This document shows, one piece after another, positions 10,574 through 37,046 of a DNA stretch of 64,000 bases. The stretch lies in the NCBI GenBank assembly GCA_963823995.1, contig CAWGNQ010000005.1, forward strand, positions 514,510-578,509, read 5' to 3'. Position 1 is the first letter of the stretch. The number at the start of each line of letters is the position of its first letter. Both the position numbers and the translations under genes were made by a program. This DNA is from an uncultured Acidobacteriota bacterium (GTDB taxonomy: Bacteria; Acidobacteriota; UBA6911; RPQK01; JAPXNP01). The notes under the pieces were generated by a model that was not told the DNA's origin, made no database searches, and was given only the letters and a program-made list of their open reading frames with translations.

Positions 10574-11195
10574 GGTGCCCTCCTTTCCCCGCCGCCTCCA
10601 GAATGGCATCCCGGATCCCCATATAGGTCCCGCAGCGGCAGAAGTTACCCCCCAGCCCCTTCTCGATCTCTTCGAGCGAGGGGTTGGGATTTCGATCGAG
10701 AAACGCTTTGGAGGCCACGACGAATCCTGGCGTGCAAAAACCGCACTGCTGGGCGTCGTTGTCGACGAACGCCCGCTGCATGGGATGCATGTCCTCCGGT
10801 GTTCCGAGCCCTTCGATCGTGACGATCTGATGTCCCATGGCTTCGATGGCCAGTACCGAGCAAGCATAGACCGGTTTATCGTCCATCAAAACCGTGCAGG
10901 CCCCACAGGTCCCACGGTCGCACACCTTTTTGGTTCCGGTCAGATCCAGAACGTCTCGAAGGGTGTCGAGCAACGTGACCCGAGGCTCCACTTCAAGCTG
11001 GTGGACCTTTCCGTTGATGCTGAGCTGGATCGGGACCTTGCCGGGTCCCAAAATCTGCGTTCCTGCCTCACTTTTCGCGAGTCCGGCTTGCTGCGAGATG
11101 AGTGCGGCAGAGACGGCACCGGCCGTGCCGCTCCTGAAAAAGTCTCGGCGAGACAGGCCGGAGCCATTCTGCTCAGGTTTCTTGTCCTTGGGCAT
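10566..11195 (-). CDS. Xanthine dehydrogenase family, [2Fe-2S] small subunit with TAT signal peptide (PaoA-like, periplasmic)
   Basis: Twin-arginine motif SRRDFFRSGTAGAVSAAL. Two 2Fe-2S cysteine clusters (CDRGTCGACTV and CGFCTPG...CRCGTY). Confidence 0.9.
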   Translation of the reverse strand: MPKDKKPEQNGSGLSRRDFFRSGTAGAVSAALISQQAGLAKSEAGTQILGPGKVPIQLSINGKVHQLEVEPRVTLLDTLRDVLDLTGTKKVCDRGTCGACTVLMDDKPVYACSVLAIEAMGHQIVTIEGLGTPEDMHPMQRAFVDNDAQQCGFCTPGFVVASKAFLDRNPNPSLEEIEKGLGGNFCRCGTYMGIRDAILEAAGKGGHHA

Positions 11196-11834: not shown

Positions 11835-12422
11835 ATGAGTACTTTGGTAAGCGTACGAGACAACGTTCTGGGAGATTTCGAAGATTTGTCGAAGGCCGAG
11901 CGACAGGAATTGATGGCACTTGGACTGCTTTCAACAGCGGGCTCGGTCCGGCCGTTTCGCGAGGCGCCTCACGAACCCGGGTTTTCATCGGTCGAACGCC
12001 AGGCTGTCTGCGCCCCGTCGGTGCTCAACGAGGCCTCTGAATACGGGTCCGCCTTTTCGCGGGGGCTTCGTCTGGAGCTTGACTCCTATGCGCTGATCTT
12101 CATCTCGGGCACGGCCAGTGTCGATGAGGTCGGCAATACGGTGCACAAGGGAGATCTCCGAGCGCAGTGCTGGAGGACTTACCGGAACATTACGGAACTC
12201 CTGGCAGCCCAGGGGGCGACTTGGCGGGACGTGGTCAAGTGCACCTGCTACCTCCGCGACATCGAGCGTGATTACGACGAATTCAATCGAGTGCGCACCA
12301 CCTTCTTCGATTACCTCCAACTGAATCCCCTTCCCGCCAGCGTCGGCATCCAGGCGCGGCTCTGTCGGGAAGACCTGCTGGTGGAAATCGAAGCGATCGC
12401 CATTCTCAAGAAAGAAAAGTAG
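11835..12422 (+). CDS. RidA/YjgF/L-PSP family protein with N-terminal extension
   Basis: C-terminal 130 aa show the Rid fold pattern (ISGTASVD...CYLRDIERDYDEFNRVRTTFF). GAGGAGGG RBS before the ATG at 11835. Confidence 0.85.
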   Translation: MSTLVSVRDNVLGDFEDLSKAERQELMALGLLSTAGSVRPFREAPHEPGFSSVERQAVCAPSVLNEASEYGSAFSRGLRLELDSYALIFISGTASVDEVGNTVHKGDLRAQCWRTYRNITELLAAQGATWRDVVKCTCYLRDIERDYDEFNRVRTTFFDYLQLNPLPASVGIQARLCREDLLVEIEAIAILKKEK

Positions 12423-12591: not shown

Positions 12592-14547
12592 ATGAAGCGT
12601 CACGATCGCCTGCTCTTCCGGTTCCTTCTGATCCTGGCGATCGGAGCCTGTCCGTCTGTGCTCGGCTCGGACAAGGGACGGCAAGATTCGCTGGTCTTCG
12701 TCGAAGTTTCCCCAACCTCGCTTTCGGGCCTCCGACCCGAGCGGACTGCGACCCTGCGGTCCGACGTGTGCTCGGGCGCCCATCTGGTCCGCTGGAACCC
12801 AACCGGAGAGAAGAAGGTCCTGAGCGCCGGCTTTGAGAGCGCCTGCGAACCGGATGTCTCATTCGACGCCCGCCATATTCTGTTCGCCGGCCGGCGTCAT
12901 GCCGGAGACGCCTGGAACATCTTCGAGATCGACGTCGATGGTCGGAATCTGCGGCAGATCACCCGCGAGGCCGGGAATTGCCGTCAGCCTCGATATCTAT
13001 CGAACTACTATGTCATTACGGCGGACGAGCCCTGGCTGCAGATCCTGTTTGTCAGCGATGCGGCGGGCGAGTTGAATGAGAAAGGAGACTGCCCCGCGAC
13101 CGACCTCTACTCCTGCCGGATCGACGGATCCGAGATCCGGCGTGTCACCTACAATCCGTCCGCGGACCTCGATCCTTTCCTGATGTGGGACGGACGGATC
13201 CTCTTTTCGAGCTGGCAAAGCTCCCTGCCCCGTTTCGGAAGCCGGGGGCGGATGCGGATCTTCGCCATGAACGTCGATGGGACCGACCTCACCGCCTTCA
13301 CCGCGGAACAGGGGCTTCGGGTGCAGCGGATGCCCGCGGTGACTTCAGAGGGGCTGGCAGTGTTCGTCGAGTCGAACGAGACGGTGCCGGATGGCGGGGG
13401 GCAACTAGGCCGCGTCGAACTGCGCAGGAACCTCCACAGCTACCGCTCGCTGACCGGACCCTCCGACGGCCTGTTCCACACTCCGTCGCCACTTCCCGAC
13501 GGCTCGCTACTGGTCTCCTGGCGCGCAAACAACGCCTCGCAGCCGTATGCCCTGTTCCGGTTCGACCCTGAAACCTCGAAGCTCGAGCCGCTCTACAGTG
13601 ACCCGTCACGACACCTCCTACAGGGTCATGTACTCCGCCCCCGACCGCGACCGGATGGCCGCTCGAGCGTGGTCAACGACGCTCACCCTTACGGTCAGTT
13701 CTATGCCCTCAATATCGGAATCAACGACTTGACCGACCCATCCTGGCTCGCACCGCCGACGGCCCGGCGGATTCGGGTCATCGAAGGGCTTCCCCGGCAT
13801 GTGTCCGATCCACCCCCGTCGGTGGGATCCCCCTACCTTCCCGGACGGATCCTGGGGGAAGCTCCGATCCACGAAGACGGATCGTTCTTCTTCGAGGTTC
13901 CGGCCAATCTGCCGATTCAGCTCCAACTGCTGGATCAGAGCGGAATGGCCCTGCGCAGCTGCGGCTGGATCTGGGTACGCAACAAGGAACCCCGCGGGTG
14001 TATCGGATGTCACGAGGACGGCGAGCGCACGCCTCCCAATCGTCTCGTCGAAGCCGTCGAGACGCCCCCGGTGCGACTCACGCTTCCCGCACCGCAGAGA
14101 CGTTTCGTGGATTTCGACCGGGACGTCCTTCCGGTCATCGCCTCCGGCTGTGCAACGGAAGCCTGTCACGGAAACGAATCGAACCGGCTCGACCTGAAGC
14201 CGACCGCCTCCGGTCCGCGCACGCCCGGATATTCGGCCCGGGTCTATACAAAGCTCGCCGAGGGTCTGGGTGCAGACGATGATCCGACGCGCGGTCGCTG
14301 GATCCATCCCGGCGAAGCGCGGACAAGTCCCCTGATCTGGCATCTGCTCGGTCGGAGCGTCTCGCGACCGTGGGATCCCGTTCCGGCCCATCCCGAGAGG
14401 ATTCCTGTCGGAGGGTCCCCCCTGTTGCAGCCCGCACAGCTTCGCGTGTTCGTCGAGTGGATCGACCTCGGAGCGCAGGGAAGTTCCCGCGTCGCAGATG
14501 CCGCCCGGCGTGCAGTTGCGCCCGCCCCTTCAGGAGCAAACGAATGA
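12592..14547 (+). CDS. Secreted PD40/TolB-like beta-propeller fused to a PSCyt1-type (Planctomycete cytochrome c) domain
   Basis: Signal peptide MKRHDRLLFRFLLILAIGACPSVLG. Propeller repeats. C-terminal CIGCH (CxxCH), then DVLPVIASGCATEACHGNESNRLDL, which matches the PSCyt1 consensus but with CX4CH. GGAG RBS before the ATG at 12592. The stop overlaps the next start (ATGA). Confidence 0.8.
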   Translation: MKRHDRLLFRFLLILAIGACPSVLGSDKGRQDSLVFVEVSPTSLSGLRPERTATLRSDVCSGAHLVRWNPTGEKKVLSAGFESACEPDVSFDARHILFAGRRHAGDAWNIFEIDVDGRNLRQITREAGNCRQPRYLSNYYVITADEPWLQILFVSDAAGELNEKGDCPATDLYSCRIDGSEIRRVTYNPSADLDPFLMWDGRILFSSWQSSLPRFGSRGRMRIFAMNVDGTDLTAFTAEQGLRVQRMPAVTSEGLAVFVESNETVPDGGGQLGRVELRRNLHSYRSLTGPSDGLFHTPSPLPDGSLLVSWRANNASQPYALFRFDPETSKLEPLYSDPSRHLLQGHVLRPRPRPDGRSSVVNDAHPYGQFYALNIGINDLTDPSWLAPPTARRIRVIEGLPRHVSDPPPSVGSPYLPGRILGEAPIHEDGSFFFEVPANLPIQLQLLDQSGMALRSCGWIWVRNKEPRGCIGCHEDGERTPPNRLVEAVETPPVRLTLPAPQRRFVDFDRDVLPVIASGCATEACHGNESNRLDLKPTASGPRTPGYSARVYTKLAEGLGADDDPTRGRWIHPGEARTSPLIWHLLGRSVSRPWDPVPAHPERIPVGGSPLLQPAQLRVFVEWIDLGAQGSSRVADAARRAVAPAPSGANE

Positions 14548-16187
14548 GCCTTCCATGCAACAGAGTCCTGCTCCCGGTGGTCCTGGTCCTGACCATGTCC
14601 GGACCGGCAACAGCAGCCGATCAGGCGGAACCACTCCCCGTATTCACCGACATCACGGAACCGTCCGGAATCCGCTTCAAACACAGCTATGGCGACTTCG
14701 ACCTCACGAACATTGTCGAGGGGACCGGGGCCGGCGCCTGTCTGTTCGACTATGACGCAGACGGCTGGCTGGACATCTACTTCCCCAACGGCGCCTGGGA
14801 GAAAGCCATCAACGACAACCGCGGTCGAAAGCTGCGAGGGAAGCTCTTCAATGCCCTCTACCGAAACAACCATGACGGGACCTTCTCGGACGTCACGGAT
14901 CGGGCCGGCGTTGGTGACCCGAGTCCGAGTTTCGGCTGCTCGACCGCGGACTTCGATGCGGACGGGGATCTGGATCTGTATGTCCTCAATTACGGACCGA
15001 ACGTCCTCTACCGCAATAACGGAGACGGCACCTTTGCCGACGTGTCCGCCGCCAGCGGTCTTGCAGATGCCCGCTGGAGCCTTTCCGCACCCTGGTTCGA
15101 CTATGACAACGACGGCCATCTGGACGTCTACGTAGCAAACTACCTTAAATACGATGACGGCAAGTTCCGTGCATACTATGCGGCGTCCGGTTATCCGGGT
15201 CCGCTCAGTTATAGTGCCGAACCGGACGCGCTTTACCGCAACAACGGGGACGGGACGTTCACGGACGTCACGAAAGAGGCCGGCCTCTACAAAGACAACG
15301 GTCGCGCCATGAGCGCTACCGTGGCCGATCTCAATGGCGACGGCTACCTCGACATCTACGTGGCCAACGACGCCACCGAGAACTACTACTTCGAAAACAC
15401 GGGCAAAGCCACATTCGTCGAAAAGGGACTCAACCTCGGACTCGCCTTCGGCGAACACGGGCAGGGCGTCTCCTCCATGGGCCCCTTCGCAGGAGACATC
15501 GATCGTAACAATCTTCTGGACATCTATATTCCGGACATGGGGTACAGCAGTCTCCTGATGAATCAGGGAGAGTTCTTCGAAGACTGGACCACTCACTCGA
15601 AGGTTGCCGTCTCCTGCGGGCAGTACACGGGCTGGGGTGGACTCCTGCTCGACTACGACAACGACGGCTATCTCGACCTGTTCGTGTCGAACGGCAACGC
15701 CCATCACGAGTACACCGAGGAGGACGTCCTCCTGCGCAATGAGGGGGCCGGAGTCTTTGCCGACGTCTCCGACCGCTCGGGTGACTATTTTCGTGTCAAG
15801 AAGGTGGGCCGGGGCTCGACGTTCGGGGATATCGACAATGACGGGGACCTGGACATCCTGGTCGTCAATCTGAACAATACGCCCAATCTCCTTCGCAATG
15901 ACGGAGGAAATCGCAACCACTGGCTCGCCGTGCTGCCCCGCCTGACCGGCCCGTCACGGGATGCAATCGGTGCCCGCGTCACTGTGACCGCCGGCTCGCT
16001 GACCATGATCGAAGACCTGATTCCGGTCCGCGGGTACCTGTCGCAGATGGACCCACGGCTCCATTTCGGCCTGGGCCAGGCCGAGCAGGCCGATTCGGTG
16101 GAGATCCGCTGGCCCGGTGGTGAGGTACAACGGCTCGAAAACGTGAAGGCGAATCAGTTCCTCGAGGTGGTTCGCGGCGCTCAGTGA
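14544..16187 (+). CDS. CRTAC1-family protein (FG-GAP/VCBS repeats plus ASPIC/UnbV C-terminal domain), secreted
   Basis: Repeated YRNNGDGTF-DVT and DYDNDGxLD motifs. C-terminal UnbV-like RWPGG...QRL. Signal peptide MSLPCNRVLLPVVLVLTMSGPATAA. AGGAG RBS. Confidence 0.85.
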   Translation: MSLPCNRVLLPVVLVLTMSGPATAADQAEPLPVFTDITEPSGIRFKHSYGDFDLTNIVEGTGAGACLFDYDADGWLDIYFPNGAWEKAINDNRGRKLRGKLFNALYRNNHDGTFSDVTDRAGVGDPSPSFGCSTADFDADGDLDLYVLNYGPNVLYRNNGDGTFADVSAASGLADARWSLSAPWFDYDNDGHLDVYVANYLKYDDGKFRAYYAASGYPGPLSYSAEPDALYRNNGDGTFTDVTKEAGLYKDNGRAMSATVADLNGDGYLDIYVANDATENYYFENTGKATFVEKGLNLGLAFGEHGQGVSSMGPFAGDIDRNNLLDIYIPDMGYSSLLMNQGEFFEDWTTHSKVAVSCGQYTGWGGLLLDYDNDGYLDLFVSNGNAHHEYTEEDVLLRNEGAGVFADVSDRSGDYFRVKKVGRGSTFGDIDNDGDLDILVVNLNNTPNLLRNDGGNRNHWLAVLPRLTGPSRDAIGARVTVTAGSLTMIEDLIPVRGYLSQMDPRLHFGLGQAEQADSVEIRWPGGEVQRLENVKANQFLEVVRGAQ

Positions 16188-16206
16188 GCCAGGGAGATCA
16201 AGACTC

Positions 16207-19062
16207 ATGCGACTCAGATTGCTGCAGTTGATGCTTGGCGGCGCACTTCTGTTGACCGGCTTGGCACTGGGCCAGAGCCAGAAGGAACCGATCTATGTAG
16301 GAGCTCGGGCCTGCGGTCAGTGTCACGACGGCCCGGGAATGGGGCATCAGTTCAGCCAGTGGATCGTCTCGAAGCACGCCCGCGCCTACGCCGTCCTGTC
16401 CAAGCCCGAAGCCAAAGAGATCGCCCGTCTGAGCGGAATTCCGCAGGAGCCGCAGGAGTCCGCGATGTGCCTCGGGTGTCACGCCACGGGAGCCGAGGTC
16501 GAGGATTGGGAACGCGAAGACGGGTTCCGGATCGAAGACGGTGTCCAATGCGAGAAATGTCACGGGGCCGGCAGCGAATATATGGACGCTGAGGTGATGA
16601 AGAATCCCGACGCGGCCATGCGTGCCGGTCTGCGCAAGATCCGGCTGTCCGATTGTCAGATGTGTCACAACGAGAAGGGTTCTCACGTAGCCGTGCACAA
16701 GCTCCCGAAGCTGGATATGGAGGAAGCCTGGAAACGCCTGGCCCATCCGATGCCGGAGAATCCCACCACGGCCACCGTCGAGATCCCGACGGGTCAGGCC
16801 AGTGAGGGGTCCGCCGGACACAAGTTCGTAGGAGCCCACGCCTGCGGGTCCTGCCACCGCTCCGCCTCGATGGGATTTCAATGGAGCCGTTGGCGCTTGT
16901 CTGCGCATTCTGGAGCCTTTGGGCGCCTTGCGACCGAACAGGCCTATGCTGTTGCCCGCGAAGCAGGAGTCGAGGGTAATCCCCAGGAGAGCCCACAGTG
17001 TCTCCGATGTCATACGACCGGAGGAGGCGATCTTTCCGGCGCGCTGCCCTCCTTCACGCTCGACGAGGGCGTCGGATGCGAGGCTTGTCACGGCCCTGGG
17101 AGCGACTATCAAGCAGAAGCCGTGATGCGGGACGGGACCGCCGCCACCCAGGCCGGTCTTCAGATTGCCGATCGGGAGAAATGCCTCACCTGCCACGACG
17201 AGGCCCACGGGAAGCCCTTCGATTACGCCGCAGCCTGGAAGAAGATCGCGCATCCCAACGCCCCGCCGGAAGTGGTCCGGGAGGTCCGCTACAAGAATCC
17301 GCTGAACCTGGCCCTGTCACCCGACGGGAAGGAGCTCTACGTGACCTGCGAGGCTTCCGATTCCGTCATCGTGATCGATGCCGTGGCACATCGCAAGGTG
17401 GCCGAAATCCCGGTAGGAGGACAGCCTCATGATGTCGCGTTCAGCCCCGACGGTCGGTTCGCGTATGTCACGAACCGGCTCGACGACAGCCTTTCGGAGA
17501 TCGACACCACGACTCGTACCGTGACACGGACGGCACCGGTCGGCGACGAACCTCATGCACTCCTCACCAATCGGGAGGGGAACCGGATCTACGTGCTCAA
17601 CTCGTCGGAAGACAGCATCTCCATTCTCGACTCTTCGACGCTTCAGGAAGTCAAACGGCTGACCGCCAGCCGTTATCCCTGGTCGATGGCGCTCTCGCCC
17701 GACGGAGAACAGCTCCTGGTCACCAATTCCCTCTCGCGGTTCGTCCCGTTCCGGACATCCTCAGTTTCGGAACTGACCGTGGTCGGTACAGAGCGGAACC
17801 TCGTCGATGATCGCTACGCCGTCGACGGCACCAACCTGCTGCAGGGCGTGACCTGGCACCCGAGTGGAGACTACGCCCTCTTTACGCTGCTTCGTACCAA
17901 GAACCTGGTACCCATGACCCGGTTGGCGCAGGGCTGGACGATCACGAACGGGCTGGGTATCGCCTGGAAGGACGGCCGGATCGACCAGGTTCTGCTCGAC
18001 GAGCCGGACATGTGCTTCCCGGATCCGGCCGGCGTCGCCATTTCTCCCGATGGCCGGTATGCTTTCGTGACCAGTGCGAGTCTCGACCGTGTCGCGGTCG
18101 TCGACCTCGCAAAGCTGGTCGGCATTCTGCAGTCCGTGTCGGATGCAGAGCGGAAACAAGTGATCCCCAACCACCTTGGATTTCCGACCGAGTTCATCGT
18201 CAAGAGGATACCGACCCGCCACAGCCCGCGGGGGGTGGTCTTCAGTGCGGACGGCCGGACCGCGTTCGTCGCCAACTGCCTTGACGATTCGATCACCACG
18301 ATCGACGTCGCGTCACTCGAAGCCACCGAGCGGATCGATCTGGGTGGACCGAAGAAGATCACGAAGGCCCGACTGGGTGAACAGCTTTTCCACAATGCCA
18401 AGATCACGTTCCACCGCGAGTTCTCTTGCCACTCCTGTCATCCCGACGGCCATGTGGACGGAATCACGTATGACATCGAACCGGACGGCGTCGGCGTCAG
18501 CCCGGTCGACAACCGGACGCTGCGGGGCATTCTCGATACGGCTCCCTTCAAATGGGAAGGTACCAACCCCAGCCTGCAACGCCAGTGCGGTCCGCGCCTC
18601 GCTGTCTTCTTCACCCGGATTCAGCCTTTTACACCGGAAGAACTGTCGGCACTCGATCTCTACATTTCCACCATCACCCGACCACCCAACCGATACCGGC
18701 CCCTGGGAGCCGAACTCACTCCCGCCCAGCGCCGCGGACGGGCGGTCTTCGAAAGAACCGTGACGAACGACGGTCGGCTTCTGCTTCCGGAGCAGCAGTG
18801 CGTTTTCTGTCATCCGCCACCGCTCTATACGAACCGACGGAAGTTCGACGTCGGAACGCGGATGCAGTACGACCGCGAGGTCCGGTTCGATGTTCCGCAC
18901 CTCAACAACATCTACGACTCCGCGCCCTATCTACACAACGGAATCGCTCCGACCCTCGAGGAAATCTGGACGGTACACAATCCGAACGACAGCCACGGTG
19001 TGACCAACGATCTGACCAAGGATCAGCTCAACGATTTGATCGAGTACATCAAGACGTTCTGA
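16207..19062 (+). CDS. Multi-domain c-type cytochrome: two tandem tetraheme modules (8 CxxCH), a YVTN-type beta-propeller, and a C-terminal di-heme cytochrome c peroxidase/MauG-like domain (2 CxxCH)
   Basis: N-terminal CxxCH motifs CGQCH, CLGCH, CEKCH, CQMCH, CGSCH, CLRCH, CEACH, CLTCH, arranged as an internal duplication of ~175 aa. Central repeats of the SPDG..YVTN type (ALSPDGKELYVT, AFSPDGRFAYVTN, ALSPDGEQLLVTN, AISPDGRYAFVTS, VFSADGRTAFVAN). C-terminal FSCHSCHPDG ... CVFCHPPPLYT resembles the CCP/MauG fold. Signal peptide present. Confidence 0.85.
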   Translation: MRLRLLQLMLGGALLLTGLALGQSQKEPIYVGARACGQCHDGPGMGHQFSQWIVSKHARAYAVLSKPEAKEIARLSGIPQEPQESAMCLGCHATGAEVEDWEREDGFRIEDGVQCEKCHGAGSEYMDAEVMKNPDAAMRAGLRKIRLSDCQMCHNEKGSHVAVHKLPKLDMEEAWKRLAHPMPENPTTATVEIPTGQASEGSAGHKFVGAHACGSCHRSASMGFQWSRWRLSAHSGAFGRLATEQAYAVAREAGVEGNPQESPQCLRCHTTGGGDLSGALPSFTLDEGVGCEACHGPGSDYQAEAVMRDGTAATQAGLQIADREKCLTCHDEAHGKPFDYAAAWKKIAHPNAPPEVVREVRYKNPLNLALSPDGKELYVTCEASDSVIVIDAVAHRKVAEIPVGGQPHDVAFSPDGRFAYVTNRLDDSLSEIDTTTRTVTRTAPVGDEPHALLTNREGNRIYVLNSSEDSISILDSSTLQEVKRLTASRYPWSMALSPDGEQLLVTNSLSRFVPFRTSSVSELTVVGTERNLVDDRYAVDGTNLLQGVTWHPSGDYALFTLLRTKNLVPMTRLAQGWTITNGLGIAWKDGRIDQVLLDEPDMCFPDPAGVAISPDGRYAFVTSASLDRVAVVDLAKLVGILQSVSDAERKQVIPNHLGFPTEFIVKRIPTRHSPRGVVFSADGRTAFVANCLDDSITTIDVASLEATERIDLGGPKKITKARLGEQLFHNAKITFHREFSCHSCHPDGHVDGITYDIEPDGVGVSPVDNRTLRGILDTAPFKWEGTNPSLQRQCGPRLAVFFTRIQPFTPEELSALDLYISTITRPPNRYRPLGAELTPAQRRGRAVFERTVTNDGRLLLPEQQCVFCHPPPLYTNRRKFDVGTRMQYDREVRFDVPHLNNIYDSAPYLHNGIAPTLEEIWTVHNPNDSHGVTNDLTKDQLNDLIEYIKTF

Positions 19063-19095
19063 AGCGTATGCAGCGGACAGGAAAGGACATCCAAC

Positions 19096-20334
19096 ATGCA
19101 ACCAACACTGAGGCAATCCACGCGGTGGTTCCTCGGCTTGATCTCCGCCGGCGCGCTTAGCTGTTCCGGTCTTTCGGCTGGAGTCGAGGATACCCCGGCA
19201 GTCGATGCACCTGAACTACCCTACGTCTATACCGATTGGGTTCAATACACGACGAAGGAGGGTCTTCCGAACGATCACATCTTCTCGGTGGCGGCGGCCT
19301 CGACGGAAATCTGGGTCGGCACCGAGGATGGCCTGGCGGTGATCGACAAACAGACCGGGAAGGTCAAGAAGACCTGGAAGATGGAAGACGGCCTGCCCTG
19401 GAAGGTCGTCGCGGGCATTGCCGTCAACGAAAAGACCGGTGAAGTCTGGCTGGCCCTTTTCGGCGGAGGTCTGGCCCGCTACTCGGCGGGACGATTCGAC
19501 CACTGGCATCAGTTGAACAGCGGACTCGTCAACGACGTCGTCTATGGGGTCGCGCTCGAAGGGGACAACGTCTGGTGCGCCACGACGGCCGGAGCCAGCC
19601 GCTATAACACCGTCTCCGGAGAATGGACCATCTTCAACGAGAAGAATGCTCCGATGGAGGAGATCTGGAACTACGGCGTCTCCTACAACGACGGCAAGGT
19701 CTACCTCGGCGTCTGGGGCAGCGGTGTGCTCGAATACGACGTCGCTCGCGGAACCTGGAAAGATTACCTCGACCCGGACGGCGAGATGGAAATCGATCTC
19801 TACCGCGACGACGGGATCGTCCACGTGATCACGACCGGAACCAGCTATATCGACGGAATCCTCTGGGTTTCCACTTACTTCGGAGGAAACCGCTACGACG
19901 GCCGCCACTGGCGGGGCTACTATTCGCAGGAGACCGGCCTGCCGAGTGACTTCATCAACGCCGTCAAAGGCCGTAGCGCCGACGAGGCCTGGTTCTGTAC
20001 GGACAAGGGGGTCGGGGTCGTCACCGATTTCACATCGGATACCTGGGTTACTTATACGATGGATCCCGAAACTCACGAAGGCATCGCCGTCGTCTCGCGG
20101 GGAACTGACGTGCTCAAGACGCTGAGGACACCCTCGGGCATTCCCCACAACTACACACTGTGTGCAGACGTCGATGGCAAGGACGTCTGGGTGGGGACGT
20201 CCAAAGGCCTGGCTCGAGGTGTCGGCCGCGATTACTTTGCCGGCCTGCGCGCCTTCCAGAGCCAGCCGGAGAGTCCGAACGGAACGCAAGCCGGTGACCC
20301 TGCGAAGAGCACTGCTCGTTCGAACAGAAAGTAG
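19096..20334 (+). CDS. Secreted two-component-regulator-propeller (Reg_prop) repeat protein with no kinase domain
   Basis: Repeats of the GT.DGLAVID, WVGTSKGLAR and VWCATTAGASRY type. Signal peptide MQPTLRQSTRWFLGLISAGALSCSG. ATG at 19096 with AGGAAAGG RBS. Confidence 0.75.
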   Translation: MQPTLRQSTRWFLGLISAGALSCSGLSAGVEDTPAVDAPELPYVYTDWVQYTTKEGLPNDHIFSVAAASTEIWVGTEDGLAVIDKQTGKVKKTWKMEDGLPWKVVAGIAVNEKTGEVWLALFGGGLARYSAGRFDHWHQLNSGLVNDVVYGVALEGDNVWCATTAGASRYNTVSGEWTIFNEKNAPMEEIWNYGVSYNDGKVYLGVWGSGVLEYDVARGTWKDYLDPDGEMEIDLYRDDGIVHVITTGTSYIDGILWVSTYFGGNRYDGRHWRGYYSQETGLPSDFINAVKGRSADEAWFCTDKGVGVVTDFTSDTWVTYTMDPETHEGIAVVSRGTDVLKTLRTPSGIPHNYTLCADVDGKDVWVGTSKGLARGVGRDYFAGLRAFQSQPESPNGTQAGDPAKSTARSNRK

Positions 20335-20340
20335 GTTGCC

Positions 20341-21930
20341 ATGAAAACGAAAGACCTGATAGACAGCCGGAAAATCGTAGCCCGGCCGCCGCAGGCTGCC
20401 GGACTCGACGGCGGCTCCGCCGCGCGCATCCTTTTCGGAGCTGCGCTCCTCCTGATGGTATTGGGCGCAGTAGATGTTGTCGGACTTGCACAGGTCGCGC
20501 CCGAGAGTGAGAAGATCGACATTCTTCCGCCCGAGGAACTGCTTCCCCCGCTCGGAGTTGACGATCCGGCGGTTGCCAAGGTACTCGAAAAGCTGAACGC
20601 CCTCACCCCTTACGAGGTGCCGGATCTCGGATTGAAGCAGGAGAGCAACTACGCCAACACGGCCGTGGACGTCGAGCCGTTTCGGGGAGTCAAACCATTC
20701 AAGGAACACTTCCTCCTTCAGATGGAGTACACCGGCCCCGGCCGTACGATCCCGGAGCCGGAAAATCTCGGCTCGGTCAAGCTCGGCTTTATCGGGCCGA
20801 TCATGTCCACCGTCAGCGTGGCGACCGGCGGCAAGAGCCACGAAGAACCGCTGGGGATCCAGATGCTGCGCGGCTGCCGACTGGCGATCGAACAGGCCAA
20901 TGCCCGCGGCGGCTACCTCAAGCGGCACCTTCCTTTCGAACTCGTGATCAGCAACGACAACGGTTTGTGGGGTGCCTCGGGGAACGAAATCATCAAGATG
21001 GCCTACGATCAACACGTCTGGGCCATCCTCGGGACGATCGACGGAGCCAACAGCCACATCGCAATCCGGGTCGCACTGAAGGCCGAGGTCGCGATGATGA
21101 ACTCGGGCGATACGGACCCAACGTTCATCGAAACGAATATCCCGTGGGTATTTCGCTGCATCAGTGACGACCGCCAGATGGGCTATCTCCTGGTCGACTT
21201 CCTGTACCGCAAGCTGGGGTTCGAACGGGTGGGGATCATTCGGGCCTCCAACCGATACGGCCGCTTTGGAGTGCGCGAGGTGCGTGACGGCAGTCGTCGC
21301 ATGGAGAAACCGATCACGCTGGAGATGGCCTACCGTCTCGGTGAAGATGACTTCTCGCTCCAGTTGGAACGTCTCAATGCCACGCACCCCGATGCGATCG
21401 TGCACTGGGGTGACGCAGCCGAAGGAGCACTGATCCTCAATCAGATGCGCAAGATGGGCATGAACCAGCCGTTCTTTGGCTGCGATCGGCATGTCTCCCC
21501 AGAGTTCGTCGAGAATGCCGGCAAGAATGCCGAGGGCGTCTGGGCAGTCTACCCCTGGAACCCTGAGCGACCGGATCCGAAACTGGCCGCCTTCCGGGAA
21601 ATCTTTCACAGGCGGTTCGGAGTCGATGCGGATACCTACGCCGCGCATGCCTATGACGGTATGAACATGCTCATCTGGGCCACCCAGGTTGCCGGTCTGA
21701 ATCGGGCGCGCGTCCGCGATGTCCTGGCCTACCGTGCCAAACCCTGGCCGGGTGTCACCGGAAACATCGCCATGAGCGCCGCGCTCGACGACGTGGGCGA
21801 GGTCTCTCTGGCCCACTTCGAAGACGGGCACTGGAAGTACTACACACGCGAGGAGCTCGAAATCCCTCGTGGCCATATTCCAGCCCGGGATCGGGTCAGT
21901 CGTGAAACCTCCGATACGGAAAACCGCTAA
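20341..21930 (+). CDS. Periplasmic binding protein, LivK/branched-chain amino acid ABC-type family (Peripla_BP_6)
   Basis: Type I periplasmic binding protein fold features along the length. N-terminal hydrophobic anchor or signal. Starts 6 nt after the preceding stop. Confidence 0.85.
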   Translation: MKTKDLIDSRKIVARPPQAAGLDGGSAARILFGAALLLMVLGAVDVVGLAQVAPESEKIDILPPEELLPPLGVDDPAVAKVLEKLNALTPYEVPDLGLKQESNYANTAVDVEPFRGVKPFKEHFLLQMEYTGPGRTIPEPENLGSVKLGFIGPIMSTVSVATGGKSHEEPLGIQMLRGCRLAIEQANARGGYLKRHLPFELVISNDNGLWGASGNEIIKMAYDQHVWAILGTIDGANSHIAIRVALKAEVAMMNSGDTDPTFIETNIPWVFRCISDDRQMGYLLVDFLYRKLGFERVGIIRASNRYGRFGVREVRDGSRRMEKPITLEMAYRLGEDDFSLQLERLNATHPDAIVHWGDAAEGALILNQMRKMGMNQPFFGCDRHVSPEFVENAGKNAEGVWAVYPWNPERPDPKLAAFREIFHRRFGVDADTYAAHAYDGMNMLIWATQVAGLNRARVRDVLAYRAKPWPGVTGNIAMSAALDDVGEVSLAHFEDGHWKYYTREELEIPRGHIPARDRVSRETSDTENR

Positions 21931-23143
21931 CGTTCCCGCTTGGGCAACCTGTCTTGCGGCGGCCCTGGTAGTCATGGCCGGTCCGGCCGGTCGGTCCGGT
22001 CCGCTCTGGGGACAGGATGACCCGGCCCCGTTTTTCGACGGGCGAAAGGCCGTACACGACTATGCGGGACCGGGCCGGGACGATCCGATCCCGGACGACC
22101 TGAGTGAGATCCGCATCGGCTACTTCGGACCGGACGACCCGGACGATCCCAACCACGGCGATCTGTGGTTGGCGGCCTGCATGGCGGTCGACGAGATCAA
22201 CGCCGCCGGGGGATATCACGGCATGCCCTTTCGACTGTTGCCGGCCTGGTCGGAAAATCCCTGGGGCAGCGGAGTCAGCAGGATGGCGCGCATGGTCTTC
22301 GGTGAGCGGATCCTGGCCGTGATCGGAGGAGCCGACGGGGCCACCGCCCATCTGGCCGAACAGATCGTCGCCAAAGCTCTCCTGCCGCTCCTGAATCCGG
22401 GGTCGACCGATCGCACGGCGAACCTCGCACATGTGCCCTGGATCTTCTCCTGCCTTCCCGGGGGCCGGGCGGAAGCTGTCGTCGTCGCCGACAGTCTGCT
22501 CGACGACGTCGGCGCCAAGCCCTTCCTGCTGATCTCCGCGACGGACCACGATTCCCGGGCCCTGACGGAAGAAGTGCGCGATGAACTCGCCGGGCGGGGC
22601 ATGGCACCGGCACGTCATCTCGAGGTTGACTCCGCTGAAGGGCGCGATCTGACGATTCTCTCGTCCGGACTTCTTTCGGAGATCGGTCCGGCGGCTGTCG
22701 TATTGATCGCCGGACCTGCGGTCTCGGCCCGCGTTCTGGCGCGAATCCGACCCTACTTCGACGGCCCGGTCTACGGCTCCTCATCCCTGGCACGGACTGC
22801 TTTTCGACGGCTGGTCGGAGACGACCACGGGATACTTCGCTTTGCTTTCCCCGCCGATTTCGCAGGCGTCGAGACGTTCTCCCGACATTTCCATGACGTC
22901 TACGGGCGCGACGCCGATTTTGCAGCGGCCCAGACCTACGATGCCCTTCATCTGTTCGCGGCGGCTCTCGAACGGTCGGGGCCGAATCGTGCGCGTCTGG
23001 GAGACGCACTGCGGAGCCTCTCGCCCTGGCATGGTGCAGCCGGGCCGATCGAGTGGGACAAGACCGGACAAAACACACGCCCTATGACGATGGCAACGCT
23101 CGAGAATGGCCGGATTCGACCATTGAACGGAACGGGCAGGTGA
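21869..23143 (+). CDS. Second LivK-type periplasmic binding protein (Peripla_BP_6)
   Basis: Paralogous to the previous gene. Signal peptide NVPAWATCLAAALVVMAGPAG. Start is either the ATG at 21869 or the GTG at 21902, both overlapping the upstream gene. No ABC permease or ATPase anywhere in the window. Confidence 0.8.
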   Translation: MAIFQPGIGSVVKPPIRKTANVPAWATCLAAALVVMAGPAGRSGPLWGQDDPAPFFDGRKAVHDYAGPGRDDPIPDDLSEIRIGYFGPDDPDDPNHGDLWLAACMAVDEINAAGGYHGMPFRLLPAWSENPWGSGVSRMARMVFGERILAVIGGADGATAHLAEQIVAKALLPLLNPGSTDRTANLAHVPWIFSCLPGGRAEAVVVADSLLDDVGAKPFLLISATDHDSRALTEEVRDELAGRGMAPARHLEVDSAEGRDLTILSSGLLSEIGPAAVVLIAGPAVSARVLARIRPYFDGPVYGSSSLARTAFRRLVGDDHGILRFAFPADFAGVETFSRHFHDVYGRDADFAAAQTYDALHLFAAALERSGPNRARLGDALRSLSPWHGAAGPIEWDKTGQNTRPMTMATLENGRIRPLNGTGR

Positions 23144-25043: not shown

Positions 25044-26117
25044 ATGACCATTCTAGTCATTTCCGCGCTCCTGGGCCTGGTGATCGCACTCGTCAGCGGA
25101 TTGGTGTGGCTCCTCAGCCGCCTGATCGCCGGAAAAGCGATCCGGGGCAGCCGGATTCTCAAATGGGATGGGCTCTGCTTCGTGGTCGGCTTGCCCGTCA
25201 TTCTTTTCCTGGTGCTGCCGATCCTGATGTCCTATCTGATCGCACACGCGTCGACGCGTCCCATGGATCAGAAACTCACCGAGAATCCCGCGACCTTCGG
25301 ACGTACTTATCGAGACGTGGAGTTCCAGGCCGATGACGGGGTGCACTTGAAGGGGTGGTTCCTGGCGGGCGACGGAGCCCGAACGCCGATCGTCCTTGCT
25401 CACGGGCTGTTTCGTGACCGTCACGAAGTACTGGCCCGGGCCTGTGAACTCAATTTCATCGGCTTCCCGACTCTACTTTTCGATTTTCGGAGTCACGGGC
25501 TCAGTCAGAAGGCACCGATTACGCTCGGGTACGCCGAACGGCTCGACGTGCTGGCCGCCGCCGAGTTCACAATGGACGAGACCGGCATGCGACATGTCGC
25601 TTTGCTCGGCGTGTCGATGGGCGCGACGGCCTGTGCGCTAGCGGCCGCTGAGCGGCCCTCGACGGTGACGGCCCTGGTGGCCGACAGCGCCTTCGCGACA
25701 CTCGAGACAACCGTGCGTCGTCATGTACATCTCCTCCTCGGACTCCCAAGCTTCCCCTTCTCGGATATCTTCATCTGGAATCTTTGCCGCATCGGCCACT
25801 TCAAACCTCGCGAACTGGATGTGCCGGCCGCGATGAAGAAAATTCCCTCGGTTCCGGTCCTGCTTATCTACGGCAGGGAGGACCACCGCATGACTCCAGA
25901 GGTAGCCGAAACGATTTTTGCAGCGGTCCCGAATCCGGACCGGGAACTCTGGTTCGTCGACGGTGCCGGACATGGGGCGGCCTATCGCGTCGCGCCTCGG
26001 AAGTATCTCAAACACGTCGTCGATTTTCTGAGCATCGCTACCGGAGAGAAGCCACCCATAGACAACGGCTCTACACCAGCCCCGGGTCTCCCCACACGAC
26101 CTCGAGCCCACCCGTAA
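25044..26117 (+). CDS. Alpha/beta hydrolase with N-terminal transmembrane anchor
   Basis: Nucleophile elbow GVSMG. HG oxyanion motif (LAHGLF). Two N-terminal TM helices. ATG at 25044. The ORF track starts at 24975. Confidence 0.8.
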   Translation: MTILVISALLGLVIALVSGLVWLLSRLIAGKAIRGSRILKWDGLCFVVGLPVILFLVLPILMSYLIAHASTRPMDQKLTENPATFGRTYRDVEFQADDGVHLKGWFLAGDGARTPIVLAHGLFRDRHEVLARACELNFIGFPTLLFDFRSHGLSQKAPITLGYAERLDVLAAAEFTMDETGMRHVALLGVSMGATACALAAAERPSTVTALVADSAFATLETTVRRHVHLLLGLPSFPFSDIFIWNLCRIGHFKPRELDVPAAMKKIPSVPVLLIYGREDHRMTPEVAETIFAAVPNPDRELWFVDGAGHGAAYRVAPRKYLKHVVDFLSIATGEKPPIDNGSTPAPGLPTRPRAHP

Positions 26118-36956: not shown

Positions 36957-37046
36957 GGGGGCAATTCTGGCGGACCCGAGCCTCGGGGGCAAGCGGCTTT
37001 CCTCGTAAGCGGCGACAGCGGGGGCCACCTCGCTGCTACTGCGCGG

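What the first reader, a model, noticed from the sequence alone, without database searches (positions are those of the whole stretch)
12592..23143. About 10.5 kb plus-strand operon of secreted beta-propeller and multiheme cytochrome proteins, ending in two orphan LivK-type binding proteins
Six tightly packed, probably co-transcribed genes (gaps of -4, 19, 33, 6 and -62 nt). Five have signal peptides and the sixth has an N-terminal hydrophobic segment. Together they contain four different propeller types (PD40/TolB, FG-GAP/CRTAC1, YVTN, Reg_prop) and about 12 covalent heme sites. The only identifiable catalytic module is a C-terminal CCP/MauG-like di-heme domain, and no canonical respiratory partner (quinol oxidase, NrfH/NapC, bc complex) is nearby. 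I do not recognise this combination as a described pathway. It could be a periplasmic or extracellular redox or oxidative-modification machine: extracellular electron transfer, peroxide-dependent oxidation of a bound substrate, or metal oxidation. The two solute-binding proteins at its end may be sensing or substrate-delivery components rather than a transporter. This is the strongest candidate for a novel system in the window.
Basis: partly seen in the sequence, partly recalled or inferred. Interest (0 to 1): 0.8.

Follow-up and report, generated by a model that had tools for sequence, protein, structure and literature searches.

The report
Hydrazine-synthase-like multihaem gene cluster
The six genes are a real, strongly conserved operon encoding a periplasmic relative of the anammox enzyme hydrazine synthase; this cluster type was described in 2023-2025, lacks the residues needed to make hydrazine, and still has no known function.

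Summary
There are six co-directional ORFs with gaps of -4, 19, 33, 6 and -62 nt, all with N-terminal export-type hydrophobic segments. They carry 12 haem-binding motifs and four propeller types.

- Gene 1 is a homologue of hydrazine synthase subunit alpha (PDB 5c2v_A: family profile E 3e-76; AF2 model TM 0.71).
- Gene 3 is an octahaem (2x cytochrome c554-like) domain fused to HZS-beta and HZS-gamma homologues.

The order alpha-like, CRTAC1-like FG-GAP, octahaem-beta-gamma, then two binding proteins matches "clade I" of HZS homologues (Hagglund et al. 2025, PMC12758564; also Dalcin Martins et al. 2023). A Reg_prop propeller lies between beta-gamma and the binding proteins here; that paper's text does not mention it.

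I found relatives of gene 1 in at least 538 species-level genomes of Acidobacteriota and Planctomycetota. In the 80 loci examined, the same six-gene order recurs in nearly every contig long enough.

It is not a hydrazine synthase:
- alphaTyr591, alphaCys303 and alphaHis772 are absent.
- gammaHis144 is Trp.
- The gammaCys165 haem cross-link cysteine is invariant.

Function is unproven. My best guess (about 35%) is a two-site periplasmic enzyme acting on NO or hydroxylamine-type small nitrogen compounds. It is a new member of a described but uncharacterised kind.

The parts
11835..12422 (+). RidA / chorismatase-FkbO-like (YjgF fold) gene, 169 nt upstream of the cluster. It is a frequent but not universal neighbour and probably cytoplasmic.
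   Evidence: Pfam Ribonuc_L-PSP 2.7e-20. NCBIfam Rid family and FkbO/Hyg5 hits are below cut-off. A homologue is present in 30 of the 69 related loci that have at least 900 nt of upstream sequence, nearly always just upstream on the same strand. No N-terminal hydrophobic segment.
12592..14547 (+). Gene 1: hydrazine synthase alpha-like protein (651 aa). It has a signal peptide, a TolB-like propeller, a middle domain with haem motif CIGCH (nt 13999-14013), and a C-terminal cytochrome domain with CX4CH (nt 14149-14169).
   Evidence: Pfam HZS_alpha 9.7e-20. NCBIfam hydrazine_alpha 172.7 bits against a cut-off of 800. PDB 5c2v_A: 3.7e-38 with the single sequence, 3.2e-76 with the family profile. 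The AF2 model (pLDDT 79.7) has 5c2v_D/A as its only full-length structural match, E 8e-38 and TMq 0.71. C470, C473, H474, E475, D476, E478, C520, C525 and H526 are invariant in 80 sequences.
14544..16187 (+). Gene 2: exported FG-GAP propeller with a C-terminal UnbV_ASPIC domain (CRTAC1 family). Its ATGA start overlaps the stop of gene 1.
   Evidence: Pfam FG-GAP_3 1.1e-49 and UnbV_ASPIC 7.6e-26. Human CRTAC1 9etn_A 1.1e-22. Present immediately after gene 1 in 68 of 68 loci long enough. About 65% identical across phyla.
16207..19062 (+). Gene 3 (951 aa), after the signal peptide:
- an octahaem domain of two cytochrome c554-like modules (nt 16294-17241)
- an HZS-beta-like seven-bladed YVTN propeller (nt 17284-18321)
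- an HZS-gamma-like di-haem domain (nt 18334-19062)

The gamma-like domain has haem motifs at nt 18427-18441 and 18799-18813, Trp783 at 18553-18555 and Cys794 at 18586-18588.
   Evidence: Pfam Cytochrome_C554 1e-30. NCBIfam hydrazine_BC 218.9 bits (cut-off 1250), hydrazine_beta 177.7 and hydrazine_gamma 80.3. PDB 5c2v_B 3.7e-41 and 5c2v_C 1.8e-18. The gamma-domain profile scores 2.9e-29 against 5c2v_C, versus 2.8e-7 or weaker for MbnH and CCPs. All ten haem motifs, W783, C794 and H930 are invariant in 57 orthologues. The gamma domain is 78% identical across phyla.
19096..20334 (+). Gene 4: exported single beta-propeller of the Reg_prop (two-component-regulator propeller) type, with no cofactor motif.
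   Evidence: Pfam Reg_prop 4.6e-06. The AF2 model has pLDDT 82.6; its best PDB matches are the BT4663 and BT3049 sensor propellers at E 2e-13. Homologues are 63-86% identical (A2), and 4927 of the 8000 scored candidates pass E 1e-5. Present in 50 of 54 loci long enough. The text of the published description that I read does not mention it.
20341..21930 (+). Gene 5: LivJ/K-type (Peripla_BP_6) binding protein with an N-terminal signal anchor and a linker of about 110 aa. It is an orphan, with no ABC partners.
   Evidence: Pfam Peripla_BP_6 1.6e-33. Best solved relatives are amino-acid-binding proteins 4mlc, 4gnr and 3td9, at E 1e-19 to 1e-16. About 65% identical across phyla. A g5-type protein follows gene 4 in 45 of 47 loci.
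21869..23143 (+). Gene 6: second, more divergent Peripla_BP_6 binding protein, a paralogue of gene 5. Start is at 21869 or 21902.
   Evidence: Pfam Peripla_BP_6 1.3e-27. PDB 4gnr 1.3e-13. About 40% identical across phyla. Both SBP types lie downstream in 40 of 47 loci. Alternative start found.

Best explanation
**Identity (near-certain, about 0.9).** This is an Acidobacteriota copy of the clade I hydrazine-synthase-homologue gene cluster. It encodes a periplasmic multihaem complex built on the HZS architecture:
- an alpha-like subunit with one putative catalytic c-haem and one CX4CH haem
- a single polypeptide that fuses an octahaem cytochrome c554-like wire to the beta propeller and the gamma di-haem domain
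- four conserved exported companions: a CRTAC1-like FG-GAP propeller, a Reg_prop propeller and two orphan LivK-type binding proteins

It is not a hydrazine synthase. The Tyr-ligated, zinc-associated alpha-I site that condenses hydroxylamine with ammonia is absent.

**Mechanism (inferred, about 0.35).** By analogy with HZS:
1. Electrons from the periplasmic cytochrome pool run through the eight fused haems and the gamma-II-like haem, via the CCP-type Trp783.
2. They reach a gamma-I-like haem that keeps the HZS-specific third thioether cysteine (Cys794).
3. There a small nitrogen oxide, most plausibly NO, is reduced to a hydroxylamine-level intermediate.
4. The intermediate passes to the conventionally His-ligated alpha-like haem and is converted further. 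The likeliest outcome is reduction or disproportionation to ammonium or another harmless product, not N-N coupling.

The extra propellers and binding proteins would be structural or substrate-gating subunits, not transporter parts.

**Shown versus inferred.**
- Shown: homology, motif conservation, synteny, export signals and absence of ABC partners.
- Inferred: complex formation, direction of electron flow, substrate and product.

The confidence value below refers to the identity and the not-a-hydrazine-synthase claim.
For: **Homology to all three HZS subunits.**
- Family models.
- Sequence against PDB.
- Family profiles against PDB: alpha 3.2e-76 and gamma 2.9e-29, far ahead of TolB or CCP hits.
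- Predicted fold: 5c2v alpha is the only full-length match, TMq 0.71.

**Match to published clade I.** The published description has alpha upstream, an FG-GAP/CRTAC1 gene between alpha and beta-gamma, eight extra N-terminal haem motifs as two c554 domains, two SBPs downstream, Cys at gammaCys165 and Trp at gammaHis144 (PMC12758564). All of these are seen here.

**Residue tests.**
- The Kuenenia motif CSGCHYGSY (Tyr591) is CIGCHEDGE here. Glu478 is invariant and no Tyr follows.
- Cys303 falls in a gap.
- His772 aligns with Gly.
- The functional roles of these residues come from PMC12607021 and PMC12758564.

**Conservation.**
- Same gene order in nearly every one of the 80 related loci long enough.
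- The genome scan that supplied those loci found relatives of gene 1 in at least 538 species-level genomes of Acidobacteriota and Planctomycetota.
- The gamma domain is 78% identical across phyla, and all 12 haem motifs are invariant.

**For the mechanism.**
- The most conserved part is the gamma-like domain with the invariant third cysteine. In HZS that cysteine marks the haem proposed to reduce NO to hydroxylamine.
- c554-type modules are dedicated electron carriers of N-oxide enzymes.
- No ABC permease or ATPase is near the SBPs.
Against: - No experiment exists for any member. The published analysis also leaves the function open.
- The alpha-site chemistry is unknown. In the AF2 model the haem alpha-I motif region (residues 469-481) has pLDDT below 50.
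- The 64-kb window holds glycoside hydrolases, a Mo-hydroxylase operon and housekeeping genes. It has no nitrogen-cycle genes.
- Carriers named in the literature (Aquisphaera, Thermogutta, Novipirellula, Syntrophobacter, Paludibaculum, Opitutus) are not known for a shared nitrogen-oxide metabolism (my own knowledge, not tested here).
- The conserved Trp783 is a CCP/MauG feature, not an HZS feature, so peroxide chemistry is not excluded.
- The two binding proteins, the RidA-like neighbour and the CRTAC1-like protein are not explained by an NO-reduction model.
- Whether the six proteins form one complex was not tested.
Confidence: 0.85

Rival explanations
1. A peroxide-driven, or high-valent haem, CCP/MauG-like oxidising machine. 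The gamma-like di-haem domain would activate H2O2, or O2 plus electrons. It would oxidise either a bound small molecule delivered by the LivK-type proteins or residues of a partner protein, as MauG and MbnH do. The octahaem domain would act as an electron sink or source.
For: - The gamma-like domain belongs to the CCP/MauG superfamily, with weak Pfam CCP_MauG and RoxA-like hits and PDB hits to CCPs and MbnH.
- The inter-haem Trp that CCP and MauG require is invariant here (W783), whereas HZS has His.
- The PY(L/F)H(N/D)G motif is conserved.
- The cluster also occurs in bacteria that I believe to be aerobic (for example Aquisphaera and Novipirellula, named; their aerobic lifestyle is my own knowledge).
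Against: - The domain is about 22 orders of magnitude closer to HZS-gamma than to any CCP, MauG or MbnH.
- It scores below the Pfam CCP_MauG gathering threshold, 22.7 against 25.6.
- The HZS-specific third cysteine is invariant.
- An alpha-like second haem site and the beta propeller are kept, which a simple peroxidase does not need.
- No obvious protein substrate with a modifiable motif is encoded.
Confidence: 0.18
2. An enzyme acting on an organic nitrogen compound such as an amine, amino acid or amide. The two LivK-type proteins would capture the substrate and hand it to the alpha-like site. There it would be oxidised, or coupled with a hydroxylamine-level intermediate made at the gamma-like haem.
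For: - Two conserved orphan amino-acid/amide-family binding proteins lie in the operon.
- A RidA/imine-deaminase-like gene is present in 30 of 69 loci, nearly always just upstream.
- A carbon-nitrogen hydrolase, distantly formamidase- or amidase-like, lies convergently downstream in 9 Planctomycetota loci.
- Hydrazine formation from hydroxylamine and ammonium by HZS, the step assigned to haem alpha-I, has experimental support.
Against: - The RidA and CN-hydrolase neighbours are not universal. They lack export signals (for RidA), so they act in a different compartment.
- The HZS coupling site (Tyr591 and zinc) is missing.
- No ligand can be assigned to the binding proteins from sequence.
- No natural-product biosynthesis genes accompany the cluster.
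Confidence: 0.12
3. A genuine hydrazine synthase, meaning an unrecognised anammox-type metabolism in Acidobacteriota.
For: Homologues of all three subunits are co-encoded. The gammaCys165 equivalent is conserved. A 2023 paper raised this possibility for Phycisphaerae MAGs.
Against: - Scores are far below the NCBIfam equivalog cut-offs: 172.7 of 800 and 218.9 of 1250.
- alphaTyr591, alphaCys303, alphaHis772 and gammaHis144 are all replaced.
- Gene order is inverted relative to anammox bacteria.
- Pfam scans of 30 flanking ORFs found no hydrazine dehydrogenase, HAO or other nitrogen-cycle family, and the region is rich in polysaccharide-degradation genes.
- The 2025 analysis reached the same negative conclusion.
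Confidence: 0.02
4. An extracellular electron transfer or metal-oxidation conduit. The octahaem domain would wire the periplasm to an external metal, and the propellers would act as scaffolds.
For: Weak similarity of the octahaem domain to MtrC/OmcA and other multihaem families. Twelve haems sit in exported proteins.
Against: - Those hits are far below family cut-offs, and the best match is cytochrome c554.
- No outer-membrane porin or beta-barrel, lipoprotein cytochrome or quinol dehydrogenase is conserved next to the cluster.
- The specific HZS alpha/beta/gamma homology points to a tunnel-type small-molecule enzyme.
Confidence: 0.04

Closest known systems
Clade I homologues of hydrazine synthase (Hagglund et al. 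2025, Genome Biol Evol, PMC12758564). Examples: Syntrophobacter fumaroxidans, Paludibaculum fermentans, Aquisphaera giovannonii, Thermogutta terrifontis, Novipirellula artificiosorum.
   Same: - Same gene order: alpha-like, FG-GAP/CRTAC1, fused beta-gamma with eight extra N-terminal haem motifs (two c554 domains), and two substrate-binding proteins downstream.
- Both alpha haem sites are present.
- Cys at gammaCys165, Trp at gammaHis144, and no alphaTyr591, Cys303 or His772.

(Searches compared.)
   Different: Nothing essential differs. This is another member, in an uncultured Acidobacteriota genome whose closest relatives are 72% identical.

Points seen here that I did not find in the paper's text:
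- A Reg_prop propeller gene sits between beta-gamma and the binding proteins in 50 of 54 loci.
- A RidA-like neighbour is frequent.
- The alpha-II haem motif is CX4CH.
- The distribution is much wider: at least 538 species-level genomes, where the paper speaks of a few anaerobes.

I did not place the window's proteins in their tree.
Hydrazine synthase HzsABC of anammox bacteria (Kuenenia stuttgartiensis, PDB 5c2v). Scalindua has fused HzsBC.
   Same: - Homologous alpha, beta and gamma modules with the same domain order within each.
- Beta-gamma fusion, as in Scalindua.
- Two c-haems in alpha and two in gamma.
- The third covalent cysteine at haem gamma-I.
- Exported proteins.
   Different: - About 22% identity.
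- The Tyr591 ligand, the His587-Zn-Cys303 site and the His772 ligand are missing.
- gammaHis144 is Trp.
- Eight additional haems.
- Inverted gene order, with an inserted CRTAC1-like gene.
- Extra propeller and binding-protein genes.
- No anammox gene context, and no triheme partner or membrane module in the cluster.
Bacterial di-haem cytochrome c peroxidases, MauG and MbnH
   Same: Di-haem domain with two CxxCH motifs, a conserved Trp between the haems and a PYxHxG motif.
   Different: - Only weak similarity: best E 2.8e-7, below the Pfam threshold.
- An extra cysteine for a third haem link.
- Fused to a propeller and an octahaem domain.
- An invariant His (H930) aligns with the Kuenenia MHG motif, where CCP uses Met and MauG uses Tyr (my reading of the alignment; ligand identity not verified).
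Cytochrome c554 of Nitrosomonas europaea (PDB 1bvb/1ft5)
   Same: The N-terminal 320 residues of gene 3 contain two tetrahaem c554-type modules (Pfam 1e-30; PDB 4.3e-08). c554 is the electron carrier of hydroxylamine oxidoreductase.
   Different: Here the modules are duplicated and covalently fused to the enzyme rather than being a free carrier. Haem ligation was not analysed.
CRTAC1 / ASPIC-UnbV family (human CRTAC1, PDB 9etn)
   Same: Gene 2 has the same FG-GAP propeller plus UnbV_ASPIC architecture.
   Different: It is a bacterial, operon-embedded member of unknown role, and no function can be transferred from the animal protein.

Membership tests
Hydrazine synthase (HzsA, HzsB, HzsC / HzsBC; NCBIfam NF052339-NF052342) | Homologous alpha, beta and gamma modules encoded together | tested here: met
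   The alpha-like gene lies 1.6 kb upstream of the beta-gamma fusion.
Hydrazine synthase (HzsA, HzsB, HzsC / HzsBC; NCBIfam NF052339-NF052342) | Score at or above the curated equivalog cut-offs | tested here: not met
   Scores against cut-offs: hydrazine_alpha 172.7 vs 800; hydrazine_BC 218.9 vs 1250; beta 177.7 vs 560; gamma 80.3 vs 625.
Hydrazine synthase (HzsA, HzsB, HzsC / HzsBC; NCBIfam NF052339-NF052342) | Haem alpha-I with Tyr591 as proximal ligand, and His587 of the CxxCH motif turned to a zinc ion shared with Cys303 | tested here: not met
   CSGCHYGSY in Kuenenia is CIGCHEDGE here. Glu478 is invariant in 80 sequences and no Tyr is nearby. Cys303 falls in an alignment gap. The profile alignment stops right after GCH.
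Hydrazine synthase (HzsA, HzsB, HzsC / HzsBC; NCBIfam NF052339-NF052342) | Haem alpha-II bis-His, with His772 as distal ligand | tested here: not met
   His772 (chain index 745) aligns with a Gly. The attachment motif is CX4CH instead of CxxCH. No invariant His or Met lies in the C-terminal domain apart from H526.
Hydrazine synthase (HzsA, HzsB, HzsC / HzsBC; NCBIfam NF052339-NF052342) | Haem gamma-I bound by three cysteines (Cys102, Cys105 and the extra Cys165) | tested here: met
   CHSCH at 741-745 plus Cys794, which aligns with the Cys of DRVCGRD. All are invariant in 57 orthologues. Whether the bond actually forms cannot be tested here.
Hydrazine synthase (HzsA, HzsB, HzsC / HzsBC; NCBIfam NF052339-NF052342) | gammaHis144 | tested here: not met
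   PFRHEG in Kuenenia is PFKWEG here. Trp783 is invariant.
Hydrazine synthase (HzsA, HzsB, HzsC / HzsBC; NCBIfam NF052339-NF052342) | Anammox genomic context: hydrazine dehydrogenase, HAO paralogues, beta/gamma genes upstream of alpha | tested here: not met
   Gene order is inverted. Pfam scans of 30 flanking ORFs found no HAO/HDH-type or other nitrogen-cycle family in the window. The rest of the genome could not be examined.
Clade I hydrazine-synthase homologue cluster (PMC12758564) | alpha-like gene upstream of the fused beta-gamma gene, with an FG-GAP/CRTAC1 gene between them | tested here: met
   The same holds in 68 of 68 related loci.
Clade I hydrazine-synthase homologue cluster (PMC12758564) | Eight additional N-terminal haem motifs, classed as two cytochrome c554 domains, on the beta-gamma protein | tested here: met
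   Eight CxxCH motifs at residues 36-330. Pfam Cytochrome_C554 matches in two stretches. Invariant in 57 sequences.
Clade I hydrazine-synthase homologue cluster (PMC12758564) | Both alpha haem sites present (clades II and III lack alpha-II and about the last 100 residues) | tested here: met
   CIGCH and CATEACH are present, and the C-terminal domain aligns to 5c2v_A 637-774.
Clade I hydrazine-synthase homologue cluster (PMC12758564) | Two substrate-binding-protein genes downstream | tested here: met
   Genes 5 and 6 are Peripla_BP_6. Both types occur in 40 of 47 loci.
Clade I hydrazine-synthase homologue cluster (PMC12758564) | Phylogenetic placement within clade I of the published alpha and beta-gamma trees | not tested
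Assignment rests on the diagnostic gene content and motifs.
Bacterial di-haem cytochrome c peroxidase / MauG family (Pfam PF03150) | Pfam gathering score | tested here: not met
   22.7 bits against a cut-off of 25.6, covering only residues 720-793.
Bacterial di-haem cytochrome c peroxidase / MauG family (Pfam PF03150) | Two CxxCH haems with a conserved Trp between them | tested here: met
   C741, C865 and W783 are invariant.
Bacterial di-haem cytochrome c peroxidase / MauG family (Pfam PF03150) | Met (CCP) or Tyr (MauG) as distal ligand of the electron-transfer haem | tested here: inconclusive
   The invariant His930 aligns with the Kuenenia MHG motif. That suggests bis-His ligation as in HZS, but ligand identity cannot be read from sequence.
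LivJ/LivK-type ABC transporter (HAAT family) | Peripla_BP_6 binding protein encoded with permease and ATPase genes | tested here: not met
   The fold is present. No ABC-ATPase-motif ORF occurs in the 64-kb window, and only 1 of 80 related loci has one. No permease family appears among the conserved neighbours.

The most novel reading that the evidence does not exclude
This six-gene complex is present in hundreds of abundant soil, sediment and aquatic Acidobacteriota and Planctomycetota. It could catalyse a nitrogen-cycle reaction that has not been recognised. One example is periplasmic conversion of NO through a channelled hydroxylamine intermediate to ammonium. Another is coupling that intermediate to an amine delivered by the orphan binding proteins. 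In either case the complex would be the living relative of the ancestor from which hydrazine synthase evolved.
Probability: 0.25. Interest if true: 0.85.

Novelty: new member of a known kind. Interest (0 to 1): 0.55.

Why it matters
**Link to anammox.** Hydrazine synthase was long regarded as an enzyme without relatives. Its homologues bear on how anammox arose.

**Distribution.** This window shows a complete clade I homologue cluster in an ordinary polysaccharide-degrading Acidobacteriota genome. My survey indicates that the cluster is common in two major environmental phyla. Its cross-phylum conservation is very high: the catalytic gamma-like domain is 78% identical. It therefore almost certainly encodes an important but unknown periplasmic activity.

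**What would follow.** If the chemistry involves NO or hydroxylamine, budgets of these intermediates in soils and sediments would need a new player. If it does not, the family shows what the HZS scaffold did before anammox.

**Practical consequence.** Hits to hzsA, hzsB or hzsC in metagenomes from these phyla must not be read as evidence of anammox.

Tried and rejected
**Leads that gave nothing.**
- Promoter and terminator scan of 10.8-23.6 kb: counts were at the shuffled expectation, so it says nothing about the operon.
- Rfam scan of the whole window: only two tRNAs and a group II intron, with no riboswitch or leader near the cluster.
- Identifying the source organism by exact protein look-up. 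The cluster look-up gave no name and no encoding contig was on record. The taxon is inferred only from the nearest relatives (Acidobacteriota MAGs, 72% identity and shared upstream genes).
- Literature searches for experimental work on the family. I found only the two bioinformatic papers.

**Searching for further conserved partners.** I clustered all flanking ORFs of the 80 loci.
- Only the RidA-like gene is frequent (30 of 69).
- A large TPR + FG-GAP + UnbV protein occurs in about 20 loci.
- A CN-hydrolase occurs in 9 Planctomycetota loci.
- No cytochrome maturation, quinol dehydrogenase, porin, regulator or ABC genes are conserved.

**Ideas rejected.**
- A cryptic anammox enzyme: rejected on the residue tests.
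- A chance adjacency: rejected on synteny.
- The binding proteins as part of a transporter: rejected because no partners are found.

**Limits of the structure models.**
- The AF2 model of gene 1 could not be used to judge haem alpha-I ligation, because residues 469-481 have pLDDT below 50.
- The gene 4 model gave only a generic Reg_prop propeller with no functional clue.

Full report
**1. The observation**

The region holds six plus-strand ORFs at 12592-14547, 14544-16187, 16207-19062, 19096-20334, 20341-21930 and 21869-23143. The gaps are -4, 19, 33, 6 and -62 nt. Each product starts with basic residues followed by a hydrophobic stretch and has no later membrane-like segment. In gene 5 the stretch begins at residue 30, which looks like a signal anchor.

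Haem motifs number twelve:
- CIGCH and a CX4CH (CATEACH) in gene 1
- eight CxxCH in the first 330 residues of gene 3
- two more at residues 741 and 865 of gene 3

They are also confirmed against solved structures and by an AF2 model of gene 4. The start of gene 6 may be GTG 21902 rather than 21869. A promoter and terminator scan was uninformative.

**2. What it is**

*Sequence and profile evidence.*
- Gene 1 matches the Pfam domain "Hydrazine synthase alpha subunit middle domain" (9.7e-20) and the NCBIfam model for HzsA along its length.
- Against the PDB, the only sequence match of gene 1 is the alpha subunit of Kuenenia stuttgartiensis hydrazine synthase, 5c2v_A. The E-value is 3.7e-38 for the single sequence and 3.2e-76 for a 30-sequence family profile.
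- Gene 3, after its signal peptide and an octahaem region of two cytochrome c554-like modules, matches HZS-beta (5c2v_B, 3.7e-41, residues 364-701) and HZS-gamma (5c2v_C, 1.8e-18, residues 715-950). It also matches the NCBIfam model for the fused beta-gamma subunit.
- A profile of the gamma-like domain from 25 orthologues hits HZS-gamma at 2.9e-29. The next hits (MbnH, di-haem peroxidases) are at 2.8e-7 or weaker.

*Fold evidence.* An AF2 model of gene 1 (pLDDT 79.7) has the HZS alpha chains as its top hits (E 8e-38, TMq 0.71). They are the only full-length hits. The rest match only the TolB-like propeller.

**3. It is a described kind**

Hagglund et al. (Genome Biol Evol 2025, PMC12758564) searched for HZS homologues outside anammox bacteria. 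They sorted those with co-located alpha and beta-gamma genes into four clades. Their clade I has these features:
- the alpha-like gene upstream
- an FG-GAP/CRTAC1 gene between alpha and beta-gamma
- eight extra N-terminal haem motifs classed as two c554 domains
- both alpha haem sites
- two substrate-binding-protein genes downstream
- a Cys at gammaCys165 and a Trp at gammaHis144

Every one of these is present here. Dalcin Martins et al. (2023, PMC10732223) had earlier noted hzsA-like genes upstream of fused hzsBC-like genes in Phycisphaerae MAGs. NCBI already names some members "HzsA-related protein". No experimental work on any member turned up.

**4. Conservation and distribution**

*Family size.*
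- Gene 1 has at least 1563 relatives at E below 1e-5 among the candidates scored. The top 120 are all below 1e-176.
- In a library clustered at 50% identity, 464 clusters match at E 1e-30 or better.
They come mainly from Acidobacteriota, Pirellulales, Planctomycetaceae, Thermoguttaceae, Phycisphaerae and Sedimentisphaerales.

*Gene order.* In the best 80 loci the order 1-2-3-4-5-6 is kept wherever the contig reaches:

| Element | Loci with it / loci long enough |
|---|---|
| Gene 2 | 68 / 68 |
| Octahaem domain | 63 / 63 |
| Gamma domain | 58 / 59 |
| Gene 4 | 50 / 54 |
| Both binding proteins downstream | 40 / 47 |

*Sequence conservation.*
- All twelve haem motifs, Trp783 and Cys794 are invariant.
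- The window's proteins are as similar to Planctomycetota orthologues as to other Acidobacteriota. Gene 1 scores 45 against 47%, gene 3 scores 62 against 61%, and the gamma domain is 78% identical across phyla.
- This argues for strong constraint and probably horizontal spread.

*Neighbours.*
- The only frequent extra neighbour is a RidA/chorismatase-like gene, present in 30 of 69 loci and nearly always just upstream. It is present here at 11835-12422.
- ABC transporter ATPase motifs are absent from the window and from 79 of 80 loci.

*Additions to the published text.* These are the Reg_prop propeller (gene 4, 63-86% identical among homologues), the CX4CH motif and the breadth of distribution.

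**5. Why it is not a hydrazine synthase**

In HZS, haem alpha-I is ligated by Tyr591, while His587 of its CxxCH motif binds a zinc ion with Cys303. Haem alpha-II is bis-His, with His772. Haem gamma-I carries a third thioether to Cys165.

| HZS residue | State in this window |
|---|---|
| alphaTyr591 (CSGCHYGSY) | Motif is CIGCHEDGE; invariant Glu478, no nearby Tyr |
| alphaCys303 | Falls in an alignment gap |
| alphaHis772 | Aligns with Gly |
| gammaHis144 | Invariant Trp783, as in CCP and MauG |
| gammaCys165 | Kept as invariant Cys794 |

Scores are far below the NCBIfam cut-offs. Gene order is inverted relative to anammox bacteria.

The surrounding 64 kb encodes glycoside hydrolases, a Mo-hydroxylase operon, an acyl-CoA synthetase and housekeeping genes. 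It has no nitrogen-cycle or respiratory partner genes.

**6. How it most likely works**

*Shown.* An exported set of proteins with HZS architecture, twelve conserved haem sites, a fused octahaem module, and conserved companions without transporter partners.

*Inferred, about 35%.*
1. Electrons pass through the c554-like haems and the gamma-II-like haem, with Trp783 mediating, to the triple-cysteine gamma-I-like haem.
2. There a small nitrogen oxide, most plausibly NO, is reduced to a hydroxylamine-level intermediate. This is the step proposed for HZS.
3. The intermediate moves to the conventionally ligated alpha-like haem and is converted further without N-N coupling.

The support is that the gamma-like domain is the most conserved part and keeps the HZS-specific cysteine.

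The weaknesses are the CCP-type Trp, the unexplained binding proteins, CRTAC1-like protein and RidA neighbour, and the lack of nitrogen-cycle context.

*Rivals.*
- Peroxide-driven CCP/MauG-like oxidation: about 18%.
- Chemistry on an organic amine or amide delivered by the binding proteins: about 12%.
- Extracellular electron transfer: about 4%.
- True hydrazine synthesis: about 2%.
- The remainder is chemistry not anticipated here.

**7. Verdict**

The object is a new member of a recently described but functionally uncharacterised kind.

It is moderately interesting. It is not new to specialists, but it is a very widespread, tightly conserved relative of a unique nitrogen-cycle enzyme, and its function is directly testable in cultured carriers.

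Noticed in passing
window 59122-60926 (minus strand): A group II intron. Rfam domains RF00029 and RF01999 flank an ORF (59199-60647) with reverse transcriptase and group II maturase domains.
   Followed up: no
window 40216-43441 (plus strand): A GH3 beta-glucosidase is split over two overlapping ORFs, 40216-42642 and 42584-43441. The Glyco_hydro_3_C domain is divided between them. This suggests a frameshift, a pseudogene or an assembly error.
   Followed up: no
window 7464-11195 (minus strand): A CoxSML / xanthine-dehydrogenase-type molybdenum hydroxylase operon (2Fe-2S, Mo-binding and FAD subunits) lies divergently upstream of the cluster. It is also present upstream in the two closest relatives, L001 and L002, but not in other loci.
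   Followed up: partly
window 38640-39629 (plus strand): A rubrerythrin domain is fused to a VIT1 (vacuolar iron transporter-like) domain.
   Followed up: no
window 2144-4243, 34132-37172, 40216-49270: The window is dense in polysaccharide-degrading enzymes: GH9, GH30, GH5, GH3, arabinofuranosidase and GH115. This is consistent with a heterotrophic Acidobacteriota lifestyle.
   Followed up: no
L054 16791-17861; L063 16819-17916; L073 13579-14118; L030 4690-5787: Variant clusters exist.
- In L054 and L063 (Pirellulaceae), genes 1-3 are followed directly by a gene-6-type binding protein, with no gene 4 or gene-5-type protein.
- In L073 (a Phycisphaerales chromosome), only genes 1 and 2 and half of the octahaem domain remain.
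- In L030 the gene-6-type protein lies upstream on the opposite strand.
   Followed up: partly
L013 11744-12766 (minus) and 8 other Planctomycetota loci; L039 888-4568 and about 19 other loci: Two further recurrent neighbours occur in Planctomycetota.
- A carbon-nitrogen hydrolase, distantly formamidase- or aliphatic-amidase-like, lies convergent just downstream of the cluster.
- A protein of about 1230 aa combines TPR, FG-GAP and UnbV_ASPIC domains.
   Followed up: partly
window 12592-23143 compared with L003-L080: Each window protein is as similar to Planctomycetota orthologues as to orthologues from other Acidobacteriota, for example 62 against 61% for gene 3. This suggests horizontal transfer of the whole cluster between phyla. 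No tree was built.
   Followed up: partly
window 26071-27939 and 49300-51426 (minus strand): Two large ORFs (622 and 708 aa) with coding-like GC3 have no Pfam or NCBIfam match.
   Followed up: no
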